From a virus, in IMG/VR virus record IMGVR_UViG_3300021141_000706: a stretch of 64,000 bases of DNA. One strand, 5' to 3'. The notes beneath the pieces were generated by a model. That model made no database searches and was not told the origin of the DNA. It saw nothing but the letters and a program-made list of their open reading frames with translations. Positions 1,762 through 49,192 of the stretch are shown one piece after another (the first letter of the stretch is position 1; the number at the start of each line of letters is the position of its first letter). The position numbers and the translations under genes were made by a program.

Positions 1762-3648
1762 ATGGCAAAAGACGTAATTATTGGAATTGACTTAGGAACT
1801 ACAAACTCATGTGTTGCTGTAGTTGAAGGTGGTGAACCAATTGTAATCACCAACTCTGAAGGAAAAAGAACAACTCCTTCAGTTGTCGGATTTACCGACA
1901 ACGATAGAAAAATTGGAGACCCTGCTAAACGTCAGGCAGTTACCAATCCAAAAAACACTGTTTACTCTATCAAGAGATTCATCGGTAAAGACTTTTCAGC
2001 TTGTACTGACGAGGTAACGAAAGTTCCTTATCAAGTAGTTAAAGCTGGTAAGAATGTACCTGGTGTTCAAATCGGAGATAGAACTTACACACCTCAAGAA
2101 ATCTCAGCTATGATTCTTCAGAAAATGAAGAAAACTGCTGAAGATTATTTAGGGTATGAAGTAAAAAGAGCTGTTATTACAGTTCCTGCTTACTTCGGAG
2201 ACGCTGAAAGAACTGCGACTATTGAAGCTGGTGAAATCGCTGGTTTGAAAGTTGAGCGTATCATCAACGAACCAACTGCTGCTGCCTTGGCTTATGGCTT
2301 AGACAAAAAGAATACAGATTCTAAAATCTTAGTATTCGACTGTGGTGGTGGTACTCATGATGTATCAGTTCTAGAAATTGGTGATGGTGTATTTGAAGTT
2401 AAATCTACTGATGGTGATACTCACTTAGGTGGCGACGACTTCGATAATGCTATTATCGACTGGATGGTTGAAGAATTCAAATCTGAACATTCAATGGATC
2501 TTTCTAAAGATCCAATGGCTCTTCAACGTTTGAAAGATGCGGCTGAAAAGGCTAAGATTGAATTGTCTTCTACTTCTCAATCTGAAATCAACCTTCCTTA
2601 TATCACTGCTCAAGATGGTATGCCTTTACACTTTGTAAAACAATTAACTAAAGCTAAATTCGATCAAATGACTTCAAGTCTTGTTGATAGAGCTATTGCT
2701 TGTGCTAAATCTGCTTTGAAAAGTGCTGGGTTAAAACCGTCTGACATTGATGAAGTTATTCTTGTTGGTGGTTCTACAAGAATTCCTTCTATTCAAGAAG
2801 CTTTAGAAAAGTTTGTTGGTAAGAAACCAAATAAATCAGTTAACCCTGATGAAGTTGTCGCCTTAGGTGCTGCTATTCAAGGTGCTGTATTGACTGGTGG
2901 AATCACAGACGTTCTTCTTCTTGATGTTACTCCACTATCTTTAGGTATTGAAACTATGGGTAGTGTAATGACTAAGTTGATTGAAGCAAATACAACAATT
3001 CCTACCCGTAAGTCTGAAACGTTCTCAACTGCTGCTGACAATCAACCATCTGTAGAAATTCACGTTCTACAAGGTGAAAGACCAATGGCTAAGGATAACC
3101 GTTCGTTAGGTAGATTCCATCTTGATGGTATCATGCCAGCTCCGAGAGGTATTCCTCAAGTAGAGGTAACATTAGACATTGATGCTAATGGTATTCTATC
3201 TGTATCTGCTAAAGATAAAGCTAGTGGAAAAGAAAACAAAATCCGAATTGAAGGTGGTTCTCAACTATCTAAAGAGGAAATTGAAAGAATGAAAGCTGAA
3301 GCTGAATTAAATGCTGAGTCTGACCGTCTTGAAAGAGAATTGGTTGACAAAGTAAATATGGCTGATAATCTTATCTTCCAAACAGAAAAACAAATCAAAG
3401 AATTTGCTGATAAGTTAACTGAAGAAGATAAGTCTGCTTTGAATCAAGACTTAGAGTCATTGAAAACAGCTCATTCAACTAAAGATGCTCAAGCAATTGA
3501 CATAACATCTGAAAAATTGAATAGTACTTGGTCAACAATCTCAACAAGATTATACCAAGAATCTCAATCAGAACCACAGGTTAATACAGATACTGACACT
3601 GGTAATGGCGGTGATGTTGAAGACACTTCTTACGAAGAAGTTAAATAA
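1762..3648 (+). CDS. dnaK: Hsp70 chaperone DnaK
   Basis: [47 protein letters not shown]; full length. Confidence 0.98.
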
Positions 3649-3703: not shown

Positions 3704-4960
3704 TTAATTTGCCATATCATATGAATCTTCATAAGATCCACCAGTATCTCTTAATAATCTATCAGAATCATCCCAATAAACATTACAAGCTGTTCCTGTA
3801 TCACTATTTATATAACATATAGTATCACAATAAGGATATTCACCAAAATCAGCGTCATCTAACTTAACTTCAATTGTACCTTTTCTAACTGAATTACCAT
3901 CAGTAAAATTTTCATCTGGTTCCATAGATTGTCTTTTCTTATACCACCAACCATTCTTTTCAGCAAATTGTTTGAATAATTCAACATCAGCATCAAGCGT
4001 TGTATAAATTCTATCCATAAATTTAATAGGTTGTCCATCTAATTTACAATCCCAAAGAATTGCTCTGCCCTTGATTCTATCATCAGTGTATTTTTCAGAT
4101 TCAATACTGCCACTATCACCATAAAGTATAACAAGTGATACTTGAGGGTTTTGTGTATAGATATCAAAATAATCAGAACTAACTTCAGCCATACAAGAAT
4201 TATTTAATGAACCACCACCATCAACATATCTATCTTCATCATTATTATCATACCAGTAAGCAATTTTATCACCTTTAACGATATCAAATTGTTTAAGAGC
4301 ATCTTTAGCAAAATCATAAGTTGCTTTATAAACATTAGTAAATTGTTCAATTTCTTGATCAGCAAAAGGTATTTTAGCCGCAGTAAGAATAGCTCTTACA
4401 ACTCTACCTATTTTAATATTATTTCTTGATGTTGACCAAATTCTTTGATCCTCAGCTTCTTTAGGCTCCATAGCTTCTTTGTTAATAACTCCAATTTTAT
4501 CACCTTCATATTCTTTAAACATAACATAGATTTTACCAGAAGTTCTACTAACAGTTTCTGCTAATATTAAACCTATCTCCCCGGCATTTGGTGCCCAACA
4601 ATTGTATTTTGCTTTATCATAACCAAGAGCTTCAAATATTTTATTATTTCTATCACTTGTAGTTAGGTATTTACCAGATTCTGTAATTACCCAAGTTTCT
4701 GGTTTATCTTTAGTTAATTCTTGAACTTTTCTATCAGGAGTAAAACTAACAGCATCTTTTAAGTCTGTTACATCAATATAATTTTGAGTAACACCATCAA
4801 CATCTTTAGAATAAAGACTTAATAATTGGGTAGCTAATTTATTAGCTTTCATCTTATTTAATAAGTTAATAAACTTTTTTGAGTAAACTACTTTAGACTC
4901 TAGTAAAAGTTCATAAACCACTTTCTCTGAAATATAATCTCCGTATTTAAGAATTGCCAT
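3704..4960 (-). CDS. phage hypothetical protein with N-terminal tag
   Basis: MAILKYGDYISE start; SCM, GRAILW, FMDRIY, YPYCDT motifs; TAATATATA upstream. Confidence 0.75.
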   Translation of the reverse strand: MAILKYGDYISEKVVYELLLESKVVYSKKFINLLNKMKANKLATQLLSLYSKDVDGVTQNYIDVTDLKDAVSFTPDRKVQELTKDKPETWVITESGKYLTTSDRNNKIFEALGYDKAKYNCWAPNAGEIGLILAETVSRTSGKIYVMFKEYEGDKIGVINKEAMEPKEAEDQRIWSTSRNNIKIGRVVRAILTAAKIPFADQEIEQFTNVYKATYDFAKDALKQFDIVKGDKIAYWYDNNDEDRYVDGGGSLNNSCMAEVSSDYFDIYTQNPQVSLVILYGDSGSIESEKYTDDRIKGRAILWDCKLDGQPIKFMDRIYTTLDADVELFKQFAEKNGWWYKKRQSMEPDENFTDGNSVRKGTIEVKLDDADFGEYPYCDTICYINSDTGTACNVYWDDSDRLLRDTGGSYEDSYDMAN

Positions 4961-29571: not shown

Positions 29572-30036
29572 ATGAAAATGATTAAATTCTTGATGTTGGC
29601 TCTTGTAGCAACAATGTTCTTAACTTCTTGTACTGAGAACTATTCTAATGGTGAACGTATTGGTATGATTACCAAATTCTCACAAAAAGGTCTTGTTTGG
29701 AACTCTTGGGAAGGCTCATTAAACACAACACAAACTGGTATGAATAGTGCCACTCCGTTTGAGTTCTCTGTTGATAATGATGTAAATGATGCTAAAGTTA
29801 TCTCTACTTTAGATTCAGCGGCTACCGAAGGATGGAAAGTTAAAATTAAATATCATGAAACATTCGGTAAGAACTGGCTTTCTAATAGAGGTGAAACTAA
29901 TTACTTTGTTAAAGAAGTAGAAGTTTTAGATAGAGACCCAATGGGTAGCGTATTTGGTAACTCAAATAATACAGGTGGTAAAGTTGTTGACACAATCTAT
30001 GTGGTAATCGTTCCAAAAGAAAAAGTAATTAAATAA
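29572..30036 (+). CDS. lipoprotein
   Basis: Lipobox FLTSC; YSNGERIG..TKFSQKG..WEG. Confidence 0.8.
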   Translation: MKMIKFLMLALVATMFLTSCTENYSNGERIGMITKFSQKGLVWNSWEGSLNTTQTGMNSATPFEFSVDNDVNDAKVISTLDSAATEGWKVKIKYHETFGKNWLSNRGETNYFVKEVEVLDRDPMGSVFGNSNNTGGKVVDTIYVVIVPKEKVIK

Positions 30037-33519: not shown

Positions 33520-33527
33520 TAATTGAA

Positions 33528-34493
33528 ATGAAAGATTTAATAATAGTAACCGCCTATTGTAAAACTGAAGAGCAAGAAAGGTGTTTAGAAAAATGTATTG
33601 ATTCAGTAATTAAATCAGATGCTCACGTTGCTCTTATTTCACACTCACATGCTCCAATACATATTCAGAAAAAGTGTCAATATTATTTTTATGATTATCT
33701 AAATGATATTTCAGATGATTACAAACTACTGGGTTTAAAGTATTTCTCATTTAATAATAATGTTAATAATGTGATTCAATCTATATTTTTTGAAAAATAT
33801 TTTTATGGATTTGCCATTTATAGAATGTTTTCAATTGCTAGTCAAATAGCTATAAATTTTGGTTATCAAAATATTCATCATATTGAATATGACTGTGAGC
33901 TTTTAGATGTAAATCTTATAAACGAACACAGTAATTTACTTGAAGAATGTGATTCAGTAATTTATACAAACACTGGTAAAGAAGATGGTTTTCTTTATGG
34001 ATCATTCAAGTCATTTAAAGTTAGCTCACTTCCAGATAATTTCAAAAATTATAATCGTGAATTTATTAAAAATGAAATTTCAAAAATGAATCCAGCCGCT
34101 TTGGAGTTTTTAACAAAAAGAATTTTTATGAATTCCGGAAAAGTTTTATTTAAAAATACAAATGGATTGTATAATAGATTTAAGGGTGGTGAGCATTTTT
34201 ATAATAGAAATCTACACTATACTTTTTATTATAATCCTGATGACGGATCATTAAATTTATTTTATAAAGGTTTTGATTTTGAAGAAAAAATAACTGTTAT
34301 TGTTAATAAACAAAAAGTTATTAATTTGGATGTTAAACCAAATCATTGGTATGTAAGACCATTAGGTACATTTGATGAAATAGATAATGTTAGAATTGAT
34401 AACTCTGTTAAAATTTTATTTGAAAAGAATTTTGACCAAATCGAAAGAGAAATCTATAAAAATAAATCATTTATTTGTGAACAAAATAATTAA
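33528..34493 (+). CDS. hypothetical protein, possibly glycosyltransferase-like
   Basis: IIVTAY...LISH...HHIEYDC; precedes an acyltransferase module. Confidence 0.6.
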   Translation: MKDLIIVTAYCKTEEQERCLEKCIDSVIKSDAHVALISHSHAPIHIQKKCQYYFYDYLNDISDDYKLLGLKYFSFNNNVNNVIQSIFFEKYFYGFAIYRMFSIASQIAINFGYQNIHHIEYDCELLDVNLINEHSNLLEECDSVIYTNTGKEDGFLYGSFKSFKVSSLPDNFKNYNREFIKNEISKMNPAALEFLTKRIFMNSGKVLFKNTNGLYNRFKGGEHFYNRNLHYTFYYNPDDGSLNLFYKGFDFEEKITVIVNKQKVINLDVKPNHWYVRPLGTFDEIDNVRIDNSVKILFEKNFDQIEREIYKNKSFICEQNN

Positions 34494-35304
34494 TTTTACT
34501 CCAACTGGTACACAAACCACAAGAGATAATTCGTATGCTCCTTTGATTCCAAATGAGATAATTGAGTCTGTACATGAGGCTAATGAATTAGGTATATCTA
34601 TAGTTCATTTACACGCAAGAGATGAGATTACATTAGAGAATACTTATAAGAAAGAAGTATATCAAAAGATAATAGAGGGTATAAAAAAATATTGTCCTGA
34701 GTTATTGATTTGTGTTTCTTTAACGGGTAGAAATTTTCCTGAATTAGAGAAAAGATCAGAAGTGTTACAGTTACTACCTGATATGGGTTCACTAACTATG
34801 TCTTCTTTAAATTTTCCATCAGGTGCCTCAGTTAATCAACCTAATATGATTCTATCTTTGATAGATGAAATGAATAAATATGGAGTACAGCCAGAGATAG
34901 AATGTTTTGATACAGGTATGTTGAATTATACTAATTATCTTATATCAAAAGGTAAATTAAATCCACCGTATCACATTAATATAATCTTAGGTAATATATA
35001 CAACGGTCAGTGTGATTTAAGTAATTTATCATCGATTAAGACCAATCTACCATCTAATTCATATACTTGTTTAGGTGGTATAGGCTCTCAACAATTAAAT
35101 AGTAACTTATATGGTTTATTAGATTTTGATGGCGTTAGAATTGGACTTGAGGATAATTTATATCTTAAAGAAAAGAAAAAAACAACAAATAGTGAACTAT
35201 TAAAAAGATTACATAGAATAATGAATGAGTTAGATATAACTCATTATACATCAAAAGAATTAAAACAATTAGGATATGGAAACAAAATTATTAATAATAG
35301 GTAA
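34477..35304 (+). CDS. beta-keto acid cleavage enzyme (BKACE/Kce, DUF849)
   Basis: INFTPTG, VHLHARD, PDMGSL, PEIECFD, GVRIGLED; GTG start at 34477 preferred. Confidence 0.88.
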   Translation: MNKIINFTPTGTQTTRDNSYAPLIPNEIIESVHEANELGISIVHLHARDEITLENTYKKEVYQKIIEGIKKYCPELLICVSLTGRNFPELEKRSEVLQLLPDMGSLTMSSLNFPSGASVNQPNMILSLIDEMNKYGVQPEIECFDTGMLNYTNYLISKGKLNPPYHINIILGNIYNGQCDLSNLSSIKTNLPSNSYTCLGGIGSQQLNSNLYGLLDFDGVRIGLEDNLYLKEKKKTTNSELLKRLHRIMNELDITHYTSKELKQLGYGNKIINNR

Positions 35305-35914
35305 AGGAGATAATATTATAACAATGATATTAGATAATTTATATTCTAATAAGAGTACACCAGAAATTCACATATACAATAATCTAAAACTTCCTATACT
35401 GAACACATTTGAACATGATGAATTTGATATAAAAGTATTAGAGGATTTAGACCTAAATGAATATGATAAAATGACTCTGGGTGTTTATCAACCTCAACAT
35501 AAAATAAAAATAATAGAATCATTAAAGCCTGATGTGAATAAATTTACTAATATTATACATAGTGGTTTAGATATATCTAAAATGAGTAAAATAGGAAGAG
35601 GAGTTTTAATCAATTCAAAAGTATCAATTGCTGCTCATACAACAATTGGTGATTTTGTTTCAATTAATAGACACGTTTCTATAGGACATCATACTATAAT
35701 AGAAGATTATTGCTCTATTAATCCAGGTGTTAATATTGCTGGAAATGTTGTAATAGGCGAAGGCACAACAATTGGAATGGGTACAAACATTCTTCATCAA
35801 GTTAAGATAGGTAAAAATTCAATTATTGGAGCTGGTTCAGTTGTTACAAAAGATATACCTGATAATGTTGTAGCATATGGATCACCGTGTAAAATAATCA
35901 GAAATATTATTTGA
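35276..35914 (+). CDS. sugar O/N-acyltransferase, NeuD/PglD-like hexapeptide-repeat protein
   Basis: Hexapeptide repeats, IGHH, GAGSVVTKDIP...GSPCK. Confidence 0.9.
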   Translation: METKLLIIGKGDNIITMILDNLYSNKSTPEIHIYNNLKLPILNTFEHDEFDIKVLEDLDLNEYDKMTLGVYQPQHKIKIIESLKPDVNKFTNIIHSGLDISKMSKIGRGVLINSKVSIAAHTTIGDFVSINRHVSIGHHTIIEDYCSINPGVNIAGNVVIGEGTTIGMGTNILHQVKIGKNSIIGAGSVVTKDIPDNVVAYGSPCKIIRNII

Positions 35915-35940
35915 CAATTCAAAAAGTTTTACTATCTTTG
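35910..35940 (+). promoter_or_regulatory. Bacteroidota-type promoter driving the tRNA-like RNA
   Basis: TTTG 35910-13; TATCTTTG 35933-40. Confidence 0.75.
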
Positions 35941-35951
35941 TAAAACAAATT

Positions 35952-36031
35952 GCGAGTAGAGTCTAATGCGGCGTGGAAGTCGCGGGCGCCTCTAAAACGT
36001 CTAACACCGGGTTCAAATCCTGCTACTCGCA
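35952..36031 (+). tRNA. atypical tRNA-like RNA with CUA (amber) anticodon
   Basis: Acceptor GCGAGTAG/CTACTCGC; T arm CGGG-TTCAAAT-CCTG; anticodon loop CTCTAAA; D-like hairpin GCGGC/GTCGC; no encoded CCA. Confidence 0.65.
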
Positions 36032-36044
36032 CTAATTTTTTATT

Positions 36045-36221
36045 ATGAAATATATTCTTGTTGCCCTATTATCTATTGCTCTTTTTTCTTGTAAAACACA
36101 AAAGACATCTTGTGATGCTTATTCCGTAAATCAAAGTGATACTACTTTTATCACACCCAATCATTATCATATAGAGTCAGAATATAAATGTGTTTGGTTG
36201 GATACGGCAGTTAGAAAATGA
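36045..36221 (+). CDS. 58-aa lipoprotein (not in ORF track)
   Basis: MKYILVALLSIALFSCKTQKTSCDAYS...; lipobox LFSC; ATGA overlap with the next gene. Confidence 0.7.
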   Translation: MKYILVALLSIALFSCKTQKTSCDAYSVNQSDTTFITPNHYHIESEYKCVWLDTAVRK

Positions 36222-36508
36222 TAGTTCAAACTAAATTTCTTTGTAAAACAGGTAGCAGAACCGCACCGAGAGGTCCACTTGATGGTATTAAATGGCAAGA
36301 TAGATTCATTGAAGATAAGTGGTATGATGGTGAGTATGAAACTTGGTCTTGGGAAGATGGCTATAGAATAAATAGTGGATGGAGAAGATATTGGGTTATA
36401 AATGAACAAGGTGAGAAAGAAGAAATATCAAAACCAATGTTCAGATTACTTTTTGAAACTGATACACAACAATTAAGAGATAGAAAAATAGAAGACTTAA
36501 TAAAATAA
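36218..36508 (+). CDS. hypothetical protein with C-terminal tag
   Basis: Ends LRDRKIEDLIK. Confidence 0.7.
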   Translation: MIVQTKFLCKTGSRTAPRGPLDGIKWQDRFIEDKWYDGEYETWSWEDGYRINSGWRRYWVINEQGEKEEISKPMFRLLFETDTQQLRDRKIEDLIK

Positions 36509-36514
36509 AATAAT

Positions 36515-36916
36515 ATGTACGATAACGAATCAACCAAAGAGAACCAAATTCATGTTTCAAATGAGTTTGTTGATATATTCTCAAACTTCAACGTTGTAAC
36601 ACAAGTTGAAAAAATGAAACAACTTACTAAGCGTGAGTTGTATTTACTTCTAACCGTTTGCTTAGATAAATTCTCTGATGAAGATCCTGTTGTTAAACAC
36701 AACTTACTTCCTTTCAAAGAAGAAATTATGAATATCTTTGATGTTCAAGATGATAAAGATGCTATTGACTCAGTGCTGATTGATTTAATCACTGAATCTG
36801 GTGATAAATACATTGAAACTGATAACATCGTTTATAATGACGACCAAAAGTTACCAGAGCCTTTAACCAAAGACCAAGTTCGTGATGCTAAAATTAATAT
36901 CATCAACGAGAACTAA
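36515..36916 (+). CDS. acidic hypothetical protein with C-terminal tag
   Basis: Ends VRDAKINIINEN. Confidence 0.7.
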   Translation: MYDNESTKENQIHVSNEFVDIFSNFNVVTQVEKMKQLTKRELYLLLTVCLDKFSDEDPVVKHNLLPFKEEIMNIFDVQDDKDAIDSVLIDLITESGDKYIETDNIVYNDDQKLPEPLTKDQVRDAKINIINEN

Positions 36917-36959
36917 TTCTAAATTATTTTTACTATATTTGTAATCTAAATAAAAATTC

Positions 36960-48022: not shown

Positions 48023-49192
48023 ATGAAATTAAAAAGATATAATCAATTTTTAGAATCTAAATCTGATATGTGGGATATCATTCCACAATCAGTGAAAGAG
48101 TTACACGAACTATTTCAATCAGCAGGTAAGAAACTTTACTTAGTTGGTGGTTCAGTGCGTGACTTCTTAACTGGTGATAAACCAAAAGATTTTGACTTAG
48201 CAACCGATGCTCTTCCAGATGAAGTTTTGGAAATTGTCGGAGATAAATTTAGAACTAACCTTCAAGGTAAAGCCTTCGGAGTTGTTGTAGTTTACACTAA
48301 AGAAGTTCCAGAAGGAATGGAAATTGCTACATTCAGAGAAGATGTTTCAAAAGGTCGTAACCCAGAAGTTAAATTGGGTGTTACTATTGAAGATGATGTT
48401 AAGCGTAGAGACTTAACTTACAACTCTCTTTTCTATGATTTAGATACAAGACAAATCGTTGACTTAGTTGGTGGTAAAGAAGATTTACAATCTGGTATTA
48501 CGAGAATGGTTGGTGATCCTATTGAAAGATTTGATGAAGATTCATTAAGAATTTTAAGAGCATTTAGATTTGCTTCAAGATATGAACATCCTTTACATAA
48601 AGATACTGAAAGTGCTATTGAGAAAAGAAAACAACTTCAAAACATTGATCCAGAGACTGGTGAAATGAAAAGAATTTCTCAAGAAAGAGTTTGGGAAGAA
48701 ATGAAGAAAGCTTGGAAACAAGCCAAAGATTACAGATACTACTTATCATTCTTTACTAAGTTTGATATGTGGGATGAAGTATTTCCTGTTGCTAACATCA
48801 ATACTAATTTAGTTGATTCAAAAGACTTTATAGTTGTTGTTGCTAACTTATTTAAGAACGAATCCACTTTAGGTTTGACTGATAGACTAGCTCAAGAATA
48901 TAAGATTGAATTAGAAACAGCTACTAAAGTAACTTTCTTACTTTCGTTATTAAATTTCAAAGTAGAAGATGTATTTGATATTTACAAGAAAAGACAACAA
49001 TGTGCTATCACTGATGCTACTATTTTAGAGTGGTTAAAAGTCGAAGGTATTGATACTGATACTTTAGTTAAGTTTGTTGAATACAAACCAAGTGTATCTG
49101 CTCAAGAACTTATGTCTCAAGGATTCAAGGGTAAAGATCTTGGTGATGAAATCAAAAGATTAGAGATAGAAAAATTTAAACAAATGCTATGA
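48023..49192 (+). CDS. cca: CCA-adding tRNA nucleotidyltransferase with N-terminal tag
   Basis: VGGSVRD..DFDLAT, EIATFR, RRDLTYN, ERFDEDSLRILRAFRF, ISQERV; MKLKRYNQFLES. Confidence 0.88.
   Translation: MKLKRYNQFLESKSDMWDIIPQSVKELHELFQSAGKKLYLVGGSVRDFLTGDKPKDFDLATDALPDEVLEIVGDKFRTNLQGKAFGVVVVYTKEVPEGMEIATFREDVSKGRNPEVKLGVTIEDDVKRRDLTYNSLFYDLDTRQIVDLVGGKEDLQSGITRMVGDPIERFDEDSLRILRAFRFASRYEHPLHKDTESAIEKRKQLQNIDPETGEMKRISQERVWEEMKKAWKQAKDYRYYLSFFTKFDMWDEVFPVANINTNLVDSKDFIVVVANLFKNESTLGLTDRLAQEYKIELETATKVTFLLSLLNFKVEDVFDIYKKRQQCAITDATILEWLKVEGIDTDTLVKFVEYKPSVSAQELMSQGFKGKDLGDEIKRLEIEKFKQML

What the first reader, a model, noticed from the sequence alone, without database searches (positions are those of the whole stretch)
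35910..36031. Non-canonical amber (CUA) tRNA-like RNA with its own host-type promoter in a standard-code genome
The fold is best read as an 8-bp acceptor with a 4-bp T stem (8/4, as in some allo-tRNAs), an 8-nt linker before a 5-bp D-like hairpin, and an extended anticodon stem with a C-A mismatch closing CUCUAAA (the loop of tRNA-Pyl). GTCTAA occurs twice (35961 and 35999), allowing alternative pairing with GGGC. Genes here are intact in code 11 and TAG is only a rare stop (15068, 23243, 45225, 47604), so recoding does not explain it. Possible roles (inference): read-through of host TAG stops, read-through elsewhere in the phage, or a decoy for anticodon nucleases.
Basis: partly seen in the sequence, partly recalled or inferred. 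Interest (0 to 1): 0.7.

Follow-up and report, generated by a model that had tools for sequence, protein, structure and literature searches.

The report
Odd-shaped amber suppressor tRNA of huge phages
A giant lake phage that uses the normal genetic code carries a conserved, oddly folded tRNA gene that reads the UAG stop codon. In related phages this tRNA family accompanies two genes that have a UAG among their first five codons, but those genes are missing in this phage's lineage, so its target here is unknown.

Summary
Window 35952-36031 (+) encodes an 80-nt tRNA-like RNA with anticodon CUA, an 8-bp acceptor stem, a 4-bp T stem, a GG-loop hairpin behind an 8-nt connector, and a non-Watson-Crick pair closing the loop CUCUAAA. 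ARAGORN at default settings and Rfam at its curated threshold both miss it.

It is a real gene. I found 18 distinct homologues, plus five more distant ones, in huge freshwater and estuarine phages. 99% of stem cells stay paired, 13 of 22 pairs show compensatory changes, and UCUAA is invariant. It is single-copy per genome and sits behind a conserved promoter. I add a fifth helix: nt 10-12 pair with the three bases that follow the anticodon stem.

Recoding is excluded. Two relatives read whole (476 kb and 635 kb) use TAG as an ordinary stop (7-8% of stops).

In related phages the family sits beside, or in the same genome as, a PTH2-like gene (10 of 10) and an HD-domain gene (7 of 7), each with a TAG at codon 3-5. 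Neither gene is in this window or in its closest near-complete relative.

The scan noted this tRNA family before in another genome (e1-5692345), and amber-gated PTH2 genes in several others. I rate it a new structural variant of a known kind.

The parts
35911..35940 (+). Promoter: TTGACA (35911-16), a 16-nt spacer and TATCTT (35933-38), overlapping a Bacteroidetes-type TAnnTTTG box (35933-40). It ends 11 nt before the first tRNA base.
   Evidence: Consensus scan, 10 of 12 positions. The TAnnTTTG box is kept at the same distance in the homologous loci read. The same box precedes other genes of the window, at 36934 and 47999. Transcription itself was not tested.
35952..36031 (+). 80-nt non-canonical tRNA gene with anticodon CUA and no encoded CCA.
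   Evidence: My covariance model R1 scores it 97.4 bits; the next best hit in the window is an ordinary tRNA at 23.9 bits.
35952..35959 (+). Acceptor stem, 5' strand (8 nt). It pairs with 36023-36030.
   Evidence: 8 pairs, 99.3% of cells paired, and 4 pairs with changes on both sides. The eighth pair is G-C or G.U in all 18 sequences.
35961..35963 (+). Helix X, 5' strand (GTC). It pairs with 36003-36005 (AAC). In this sequence that gives two pairs and a C.A mismatch.
   Evidence: Across the family 94% of cells are paired, against 9-44% when the partner is slid, and G-C swaps with U-A. More distant members have GCU/AGC, GUU/AAC and GGU/ACC.
35964..35967 (+). Invariant connector TAAT. Together with C35963 it forms the invariant CTAAT.
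   Evidence: Invariant in the 18 sequences. It reads TAAA in the more distant members. Its role is unknown.
35968..35983 (+). Hairpin H, the D-arm analogue: a 5-bp stem with the 6-nt loop GTGGAA, which carries the conserved GG.
   Evidence: All 5 pairs show changes on both sides across the family, and GG is invariant.
35984..36002 (+). Anticodon arm: a 5-bp stem, a non-Watson-Crick closing pair C35989.A35997, and the loop CUCUAAA (35990-96). The anticodon CUA is at 35992-94.
   Evidence: 3 of the 5 pairs covary. The closing pair is C.A, C.C, A.C or C.U and never a standard pair. UCUAA is invariant.
36008..36022 (+). T arm: a 4-bp stem (CGGG/CCTG) with the canonical loop TTCAAAT.
   Evidence: 100% of cells paired, and the outer pair swaps C-G with G-C.
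36023..36031 (+). Acceptor stem, 3' strand, and the discriminator A36031.
   Evidence: The discriminator is A in 17 of 18 sequences and G in L035.
36036..36041 (+). T run directly after the tRNA, possibly a termination signal. The next ORF starts at 36045.
   Evidence: Read from the sequence. The simple terminator scan found no separate hairpin. Inference only.
48023..49192 (+). Phage CCA-adding enzyme gene, which would supply the CCA end that the tRNA gene lacks. It is not amber-gated here.
   Evidence: The G001 orthologue scores 107.9 bits against PF01743, and the gene is syntenic in W01 and W02. The window gene starts with ATG and has no early TAG.

Best explanation
This is a working, single-copy phage tRNA that decodes UAG, built on a non-canonical five-helix scaffold.

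The likely steps are as follows; steps 1-4 are inferred, not shown.
1. Host RNA polymerase transcribes it from its own host-type promoter.
2. RNase P trims the 5' end.
3. The phage or host CCA-adding enzyme adds the CCA end.
4. A synthetase that is still unknown charges it. Glutamine by the phage GlnRS is the leading guess.
5. The tRNA then competes with release factor 1 at UAG.

Shown for the family: in related phages its conserved partners are a PTH2-like hydrolase gene and an HD-domain gene. Their open frames begin only after a UAG at codon 3-5, so full-length product needs read-through. The tRNA therefore acts as a key for these genes.

Shown for this lineage: both lock genes are absent from the closest near-complete genome and from the window. 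The tRNA is nevertheless still kept intact by compensatory changes.

Its present job in this phage is therefore either to read a UAG that I did not find, or to give low-level read-through of ordinary UAG stops. Those stops make up 7-8% of phage genes, and most have a second stop within a few codons.
For: A real structured RNA:
- 18 distinct homologues keep 99.2% of stem cells paired, and 13 of 22 pairs show compensatory changes.
- A fifth helix X is 94% paired, against 9-44% when slid.

tRNA-like where it matters:
- It has a canonical T loop, GG in the hairpin loop, U33 and A37.
- Acceptor and T stems together make 12 bp, the length Mukai et al. give for the branch that EF-Tu recognises and report as translation-competent in 8/4 allo-tRNAs (PMC5389517).

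The anticodon is the selected feature:
- UCUAA is invariant although the flanking genes have diverged to about 67% nt identity.
- There is one copy per genome at 79-99 bits; the next hits are ordinary tRNAs at 38 bits or less.
- ARAGORN finds no other CUA, UUA or UCA tRNA in G001 or W01.

Key and lock:
- Family members lie 58-2400 nt upstream, on the same strand, of a PTH2-like gene in L035, L204, L205, L206, L209 and L210.
- All 10 PTH2-like genes seen start with ATG, then one or two codons, then TAG. In the two I measured, no further ATG follows for about 40 codons or at all.
- All 7 neighbouring HD-domain genes do the same, with one to three codons before the TAG.
- W01 and W02 hold both the tRNA and the gated PTH2-like gene.

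Support genes: a CCA-adding enzyme in the window, and GlnRS and GluRS in G001. The one phage tRNA-Gln I read has discriminator A, like this tRNA.

Still under selection within the window's own clade: pairs 4-77, 5-76 and 17-32 change on both sides with no broken stem.
Against: - No lock was found in this lineage. A custom HMM of the 10 PTH2-like proteins scores 204 bits in W01 but finds nothing in G001 or the window (best E about 0.7-0.95). tblastn and PF01981 also find nothing, and there is no HD-gene orthologue.
- I found no conserved early or internal TAG in the window or G001.
- TAG stops are not followed by a back-up stop significantly more often than TAA stops. That gives no sign of strong suppression.
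- The window's own copy has a C.A mismatch in helix X.
- The 8-nt connector and the non-standard closing pair of the anticodon stem are untested on a ribosome.
- Transcription, processing, charging and decoding are all unshown.
- G001 is only an 80-90% identical relative, rated 97% complete. The window's own genome outside these 64 kb could not be read.
Confidence: 0.62

Rival explanations
1. Orphaned key. The tRNA served only the amber-gated PTH2/HD module. That module was lost in this lineage, and the gene is now a functionless relic that has not yet decayed.
For: Both lock genes are absent from G001 and the window. The window's copy carries a C.A mismatch in helix X.
Against: Within the window's clade, 11 distinct sequences show only pair-preserving changes in stems (A-U/G-C at 4-77, G-C/A-U/G.U at 5-76, G-C/A-U at 17-32). 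The loop is untouched and the promoter is conserved. The 129-bp promoter-plus-tRNA island is 87-95% identical in loci where it abuts different flanks, with or without the cassette. This pattern indicates continued selection.
Confidence: 0.12
2. General read-through or insurance. The tRNA weakens termination at UAG overall. That could buffer the AT-rich 0.5-Mb genome against amber mutations, extend some phage proteins, or disturb host proteins that end in UAG. Borges et al. propose this as the stage that precedes recoding.
For: These are standard-code, low-GC (about 30%) genomes with TAG at 7-8% of stops. Most TAG stops have another stop within 0-3 codons. Borges et al. describe suppressor tRNAs in standard-code relatives of recoded phages (10.1101/2021.08.26.457843). 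Lak phages all carry a UAA-reading tRNA without any sign of TAA recoding (PMC8346664).
Against: Back-up stops are not significantly enriched after TAG compared with TAA. TAG is no rarer than TGA in G001. Conservation of TAG stops between G001 and W01 (5 of 22) is weaker than that of TGA stops (23 of 43). This rival also does not explain why the family is tied to two specific early-UAG genes elsewhere.
Confidence: 0.2
3. A non-decoding tRNA-like RNA. It could be a decoy for a host anticodon nuclease, a regulator, a processing signal for the downstream mRNA, or a carrier for a reaction off the ribosome.
For: The core is non-canonical, and standard tRNA finders miss it. An ORF follows within 14 nt, so the RNA could mark a processing site. 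Mukai et al. found natural allo-tRNAs that were inactive in translation (PMC5389517).
Against: The invariant parts are those a decoding tRNA needs: U33, CUA, A37, the T loop, the GG loop and a 12-bp acceptor branch. In relatives the RNA sits in front of genes that require UAG decoding. The anticodon nucleases I know of from memory cut Lys, Arg, Tyr/His/Asn/Asp and fMet tRNAs, not a CUA loop.
Confidence: 0.08
4. Genome-wide or late-gene TAG recoding (code 15), as in Lak and crAss-like phages, with this tRNA as the recoding tRNA.
For: The anticodon is CUA, the phages are huge phages with Bacteroidetes-type promoter boxes, and they encode a GlnRS.
Against: No ORF is split by TAG in the window, in G001 (6 candidates, all adjacent genes or spurious frames, against 11 for the TGA control) or in W01 (7 against 29). 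The major capsid genes of G001, W01 and W02 contain no stops. I found no RF2. G001 has no RF-1-domain hit, and W01 and W02 have only an ORF of about 175 aa with that domain.
Confidence: 0.02

Closest known systems
Phage-encoded amber suppressor tRNAs of stop-codon-recoded phages (Lak, crAss-like, Agate and others; Borges et al., bioRxiv 10.1101/2021.08.26.457843; Lak phages, PMC8346664)
   Same: A phage-borne tRNA with anticodon CUA in large, low-GC phages with Bacteroidetes-type promoter boxes. It accompanies other translation genes (GlnRS, CCA-adding enzyme, many tRNAs) and is presumed to override UAG termination.
   Different: The genomes here are not recoded. At most two genes per genome carry a UAG, always at codon 3-5, and this lineage has none. 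The published suppressors were found with tRNAscan-SE. This one has a five-helix core and escapes ARAGORN and the Rfam threshold. Borges et al. predicted such undetected non-canonical suppressors but did not describe one.
(8/4) allo-tRNAs and (8/4) tRNA-His/tRNA-Ser of bacteria and phages (Mukai et al. 2017, PMC5389517)
   Same: A 12-bp acceptor branch made of an 8-bp acceptor stem and a 4-bp T stem. The (8/4) tRNA-His share the A73 discriminator. Some allo-tRNAs are nonsense suppressors.
   Different: There is no long variable arm and no G73, so no serine identity. The region between the acceptor and anticodon arms differs: a 1-nt spacer, the 3-bp helix X formed with the bases after the anticodon stem, UAAU, and a separate 5-bp GG hairpin. 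The anticodon is fixed as CUA across the family rather than diverse.
tRNA-Pyl
   Same: Anticodon CUA, the loop CUCUAAA, and an anticodon stem lengthened by one layer.
   Different: It has GG in the D-like loop, a canonical T-psi-C loop and a 5-6-nt variable region. The features that define tRNA-Pyl (recalled from memory) are the absence of the first two and a 3-nt variable loop. There is no PylS. The best hit is 36.6 bits against a cut-off of 178, and it is a mini HisRS-like protein.
Amber-gated PTH2/HD modules with a suppressor tRNA, noted earlier by this scan in other phage genomes (e1-5709949, e1-5560322, e1-5784516, e1-5772546, e1-5692345). Two literature searches here found no published description.
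   Same: Relatives of this phage show the same layout: a CUA tRNA, then a PTH2-like gene with TAG at codon 3-4, then an HD-domain gene with an early TAG. I checked this here in 10 loci.
   Different: The window and its closest near-complete relative have the key but not the locks.

Membership tests
Canonical tRNA (Rfam RF00005, 7/5 cloverleaf) | Score at or above the curated threshold, or detection by standard tRNA finders | tested here: not met
   Rfam scores it 21.6 bits against a gathering score of 29. ARAGORN at default settings finds nothing and detects it only at a relaxed threshold.
Canonical tRNA (Rfam RF00005, 7/5 cloverleaf) | 7-bp acceptor stem with a 5-bp T stem, two bases between acceptor and D stem, and a D stem formed by nt 10-13 with 22-25 | tested here: not met
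   The branch is 8/4 in all 18 sequences. The connector is 8 nt, and nt 10-12 pair with the three bases after the anticodon stem.
Canonical tRNA (Rfam RF00005, 7/5 cloverleaf) | T-psi-C loop consensus, GG in the D loop, and a 7-nt anticodon loop with U33 and a purine at 37 | tested here: met
   GGTTCRAHTCC, GG and YUCUAAM are conserved. The pair closing the loop is never a standard pair.
Canonical tRNA (Rfam RF00005, 7/5 cloverleaf) | Processing, CCA addition, aminoacylation and use on the ribosome | not testable with these tools
   No expression or biochemical data are available.
(8/4) allo-tRNA (Mukai et al. 2017) | 8-bp acceptor stem plus 4-bp T stem | tested here: met
   pair 8-73 is G-C or G.U in all sequences, and all four T-stem pairs are paired.
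(8/4) allo-tRNA (Mukai et al. 2017) | Long variable arm and serine identity (tRNA-Sec-like body, G73) | tested here: not met
   The variable region is 5-6 nt. The discriminator is A in 17 of 18 sequences.
tRNA-Pyl | No G18G19 and no T-psi-C, a 3-nt variable loop, and one base between acceptor and D stem | tested here: not met
   GG and TTC are present, the variable region is 5-6 nt, and the connector is 8 nt.
tRNA-Pyl | PylRS encoded with it | tested here: not met
   TIGR02367 scores at best 36.6 bits against a cut-off of 178 in G001, W01 and W02. That ORF is HisRS-like.
tRNA-Sec (RF01852) | Anticodon UCA, long variable arm, 13-bp acceptor branch, and a score over threshold | tested here: not met
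   The anticodon is CUA, there is no variable arm and the branch is 12 bp. Homologues score 25.6-28.5 bits against 47.
Phage amber suppressor tRNA (functional class) | Anticodon CUA kept among homologues | tested here: met
   UCUAA is invariant in 18 sequences. The four more distant members whose alignments were shown keep UCUAAA, and the fifth, L210, keeps UCUAA.
Phage amber suppressor tRNA (functional class) | In-frame UAG codons in genes of the same genome | tested here: not met
   None was found in the window or G001. The feature is met in the relatives W01, W02, L035 and L204-L210, where the PTH2-like and HD genes have a UAG at codon 3-5.
Amber-gated PTH2/HD module (earlier notes of this scan) | A PTH2-like gene with an early TAG in the same genome as the CUA tRNA | tested here: not met
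   The custom HMM, PF01981 and tblastn find no PTH2-like gene in G001 or the window. The unread remainder of this phage's own genome could not be searched.

The most novel reading that the evidence does not exclude
The five-helix scaffold is a natural orthogonal tRNA. Its odd core would keep it apart from ordinary synthetases and from host nucleases, and a dedicated phage enzyme would charge it. Candidates are the phage GlnRS or the anticodon-blind 210-aa HisRS-core protein that G001, W01 and W02 all carry. The charged fraction of this one tRNA would then act as a sensor of translation health. It would switch on tRNA-repair or recycling enzymes (the PTH2-like and HD genes) through a UAG placed at codon 3-5. 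In the window's lineage the sensor would have been rewired to a target that is still unrecognised.
Probability: 0.12. Interest if true: 0.85.

Novelty: new variant of a known kind. Interest (0 to 1): 0.6.

Why it matters
Surveys of recoded phages find a suppressor tRNA in only 35-40% of the genomes, and their authors suspected that non-canonical tRNAs were being missed. This is a concrete family of that kind, supported by covariation, and the covariance model built here can now be used to search for more members.

Its architecture is, as far as I could find, undescribed. It combines an 8/4 acceptor branch, a D stem replaced by pairing between nt 10-12 and the variable region, a free-standing GG hairpin, and an anticodon stem that always closes with a non-standard pair. 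If the ribosome accepts it, it widens the known limits of tRNA shape. It would also be a candidate scaffold for genetic-code expansion.

The family also shows that standard-code phages can use a stop codon as a gene-specific switch rather than as a recoded sense codon. This phage has the key without the known locks, which makes it a natural test case for what else such a tRNA does.

Tried and rejected
- **Exact and BLAST searches.** An exact search for the 3' half in IMG/VR found nothing. BLAST of the 101-nt region against GenBank phages gave only chance hits.
- **Relaxed-anticodon pattern scans.** Scans of IMG/VR and of 185,579 species genomes returned ordinary tRNAs only, apart from the two known CUA members (L003, L007). 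I found no family member with another anticodon and none in cellular genomes.
- **TAG recoding.** Rejected for the window, G001 and W01.
- **Back-up stops after TAG.** Not significantly enriched.
- **Read-through adding the shared C-terminal R-x-x-K-I/L tag.** One chance hit each after TAG and after TAA.
- **Conservation of TAG stops between G001 and W01.** 5 of 22, weaker than TGA with TGA. The one conserved 'extension' (KKYHF) is a conserved intergenic promoter region.
- **Early-TAG gene starts in G001.** No enrichment over the TAA and TGA controls. The candidates at G001 189329, 422985 and 466602, and the BKACE gene at window 34381, failed on comparison with relatives. W01 starts downstream or has another stop there, and L030 has TAA at the BKACE site.
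- **Conserved TAGs inside frames open in both the window and G001.** One case only; it lies on the strand opposite the + ORF 29572-30036 and is probably spurious.
- **Alignment-before-ATG screen.** Too noisy to use.
- **CCA-adding enzyme gene.** It has no early TAG here.
- **The two conserved genes downstream (36218-36508 and 36515-36916).** They are in the same frame but are separated by TAA, not TAG.
- **Closest paralogue among the 53 tRNAs of G001.** None. Only the common GCGGGUA acceptor is shared, with tRNA-Gly.
- **tmRNA-like reading.** One 16-bit hit in L002. There is no G3.U70 pair.
Full report
**What is there.** Window 35952-36031 (+) reads as an 80-nt tRNA-like gene.
- The acceptor stem has 8 bp.
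- One spacer base and a 7-nt stretch follow, the latter ending in the invariant CTAAT.
- A 5-bp hairpin carries a GG-containing loop.
- Directly after it comes a 5-bp anticodon stem, then a C.A mismatch and the loop CUCUAAA.
- The variable region is 5 nt, the T stem is 4 bp with a canonical TTCAAAT loop, and the discriminator is A.
- No CCA is encoded.

ARAGORN at default settings and Rfam at gathering score both miss it. With permissive settings, Rfam's tRNA model gives 21.6 bits (threshold 29) and places CUA at positions 34-36. ARAGORN at a relaxed threshold also calls anticodon cta. The single sequence therefore does not prove anything.

**Where it comes from.** No whole genome is held for the window. 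The flanks match two of the largest known uncultured phages, LR745206.1 (635 kb, W01) and LR756502.1 (642 kb, W02), at about 67% nt identity. An IMG/VR contig of 476 kb (G001, rated 97% complete) is collinear with the window at about 78-92% identity. I fetched G001 and W01 whole.

**It is a conserved gene.** Homologues lie at the syntenic place in W01 and W02. Pattern scans gave two IMG/VR contigs and 20 metagenome contigs (freshwater or estuarine, going by their names), making 18 distinct sequences in two clades plus one intermediate.
- On this alignment 99.2% of stem cells are paired, against 81% in shuffles and 40-50% when the partners are slid.
- 13 of 22 pairs change on both sides, including all five pairs of the hairpin.
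- RNAalifold predicts the same structure on its own.
- UCUAA in the anticodon loop, CTAAT in the connector, GG in the hairpin loop and the T loop are invariant.
- The pair closing the anticodon loop is C.A, C.C, A.C or C.U and never a standard pair, so this oddity is itself conserved.

A covariance model (R1) finds exactly one copy each in G001, W01 and W02 at 79-99 bits. Ordinary tRNAs score 38 bits or less. It finds nothing among 58 candidate loci from 185,579 bacterial and archaeal species genomes. A scan that left the anticodon free found no member with another anticodon.

**A fifth helix.** Bases 10-12 of the 'linker' are complementary to the three bases directly after the anticodon stem. 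The combinations seen are GUC/GAC, GUC/GGC, UCC/GGA and UUC/GGA. 94% of cells are paired, against 9-44% when the partner is slid. More distant members add GCU/AGC, GUU/AAC and GGU/ACC.

So the D stem's usual 3' strand is replaced by the variable region. The GG loop sits on a separate hairpin that abuts the anticodon stem. The window's own copy has one C.A mismatch in this helix. It is not conserved in the other clade.

**Promoter.** TTGACA, 16 nt and TATCTT (10 of 12 positions) lie at 35911-35938. They overlap a TAnnTTTG box, the Bacteroidetes -7 element as I recall it. The box is kept 9-14 nt before base 1 in the loci read and recurs before other genes of the window. The promoter-plus-tRNA island (129 bp) stays 87-95% identical while its flanks vary. 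A 2.4-kb cassette (a 321-aa ORF, a BKACE enzyme and a hexapeptide acetyltransferase) sits directly upstream in the window and in some relatives, and is absent in others.

**No recoding.**
- No frame in the window is split by TAG.
- In G001, TAG ends 33 of 443 long genes. The 6 TAG-joined candidates are adjacent genes or spurious frames; the TGA control gives 11.
- In W01, TAG ends 43 of 527 long ORFs, with 7 candidates against 29 for TGA.
- The major capsid genes of G001, W01 and W02 contain no stops.
- Neither G001 nor W01 has another stop-reading tRNA by ARAGORN.
- I found no RF1 or RF2.

**What the family is for.** Earlier notes of this scan suggested that such tRNAs unlock genes with an early UAG. 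I tested this.
- W01 and W02 each have a PTH2-like gene that starts M-N-N-TAG or M-K-N-TAG, followed by the conserved first strand of the domain. No ATG follows for about 40 codons.
- W01 also has an HD-domain gene that starts M-N-T-TAG, 1 kb downstream.
- On contig L035 the odd tRNA (3352-3431) is followed on the same strand by the PTH2-like gene (ATG at 3776) and the HD gene (ATG at 4657). Both have an early TAG, and the PTH2 frame has no methionine after it.
- A search for relatives of this PTH2-like protein in IMG/VR gave eight loci. Five carry an R1 match 58-2400 nt upstream on the same strand (38-68 bits; UCUAAA in the four alignments shown, UCUAA in L210). One has a canonical CUA tRNA instead.
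- All 10 PTH2-like genes and all 7 HD genes seen begin with ATG, one to three codons, then TAG.

This ties the tRNA family to decoding two specific UAG codons. Two full-text searches for suppressor tRNAs with PTH2 or recoding turned up no description of this arrangement.

**But not here.** A profile of the 10 PTH2-like proteins scores 204 bits in W01 and nothing in G001 or the window (best E about 0.7-0.95). PF01981 and tblastn agree, and the HD gene is also absent. Screens for other early or internal TAGs in G001 and the window found nothing that survives comparison with relatives. The CCA-adding enzyme gene (window 48023-49192) starts normally.

Yet within the window's clade the tRNA varies only by pair-preserving changes. 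I therefore think it is still in use. It either reads a UAG in the unread part of this genome or acts more diffusely on ordinary UAG stops. I found no statistical trace of the latter.

**Which amino acid.** Unknown. G001 encodes GlnRS and GluRS. The one phage tRNA-Gln I read has discriminator A, like this tRNA. Glutamine is the usual meaning of recoded TAG in phages, so it is the leading guess. All three genomes also carry a 210-aa HisRS catalytic core without an anticodon-binding domain. HisRS reads an 8-bp acceptor stem (from memory), so this protein is a speculative alternative.

**Verdict.** This is a real member of a phage-specific family of non-canonical UAG-reading tRNAs. Its structure appears undescribed, and its family-level role as the key to early-UAG genes is well supported by comparison. 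Its role in this particular phage remains open. All steps from transcription to decoding are inferred.

Noticed in passing
G001 (L058-L081), e.g. 219872-219959, 231626-231712, 257011-257097, 272129-272211: About ten tRNAs for amino acids that normally have short-armed tRNAs (Lys, Glu, Ile, Asn, Thr, Met, Gln) are 83-88 nt long and carry a long variable-arm hairpin with GNRA-like loops. Each sits next to an ordinary copy of about 73 nt with the same anticodon. There are also tRNAs with 8-nt and 6-nt anticodon loops at 257917 and 271550.
   Followed up: partly
L104:1447-2079 (G001 220433-221065); also W01 about 345.5 kb and W02 about 378.9 kb: A 210-aa HisRS catalytic core (TIGR00442 at 158 bits, below cut-off) with no anticodon-binding domain. 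It is conserved in all three huge phages and lies inside the tRNA gene region.
   Followed up: partly
window 33526-35908: A 2.4-kb cassette (a 321-aa ORF, a BKACE beta-keto acid cleavage enzyme and a hexapeptide acetyltransferase) is inserted exactly between a conserved gene and the tRNA promoter. It is present in some close relatives and absent in others, so this is a variable hotspot next to the tRNA gene.
   Followed up: partly
L035:3439-3530: Directly after the CUA tRNA lies a second element of about 92 nt with an acceptor-like stem and a canonical T arm, but no recognisable anticodon arm. ARAGORN and Rfam do not detect it, and its fold is no better than shuffles.
   Followed up: partly
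W01 about 338000-338150; L195 (W02) upstream of the PTH2-like gene; L208 about 2920-2975: A conserved inverted repeat (a CCTCCTTAA-type arm with a TTAAGGAGG-type arm) precedes the amber-gated PTH2-like gene. It may be a leader or attenuator.
   Followed up: no
W01 48139-48459 (-) and W02 107309-107629 (-): ORFs of about 175 aa with only the RF-1 (GGQ) domain, possibly ArfB-like ribosome-rescue factors. G001 has none.
   Followed up: no
window 36218-36508 and 36515-36916: Two small genes downstream of the tRNA are unusually conserved (about 67% nt identity with W01, which is otherwise very distant). They share a frame separated by TAA plus two codons, and the first ends in the RDRKIEDLI-type C-terminal tag noted elsewhere in this genome. 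Pfam gives no match.
   Followed up: no
G001, genome-wide: The C-terminal motif R-x-x-K-[IL]-x-x-[IL]-[LG] ends 26 of 202 TGA-terminated ORFs, against 26 of 707 TAA-terminated ORFs.
   Followed up: no
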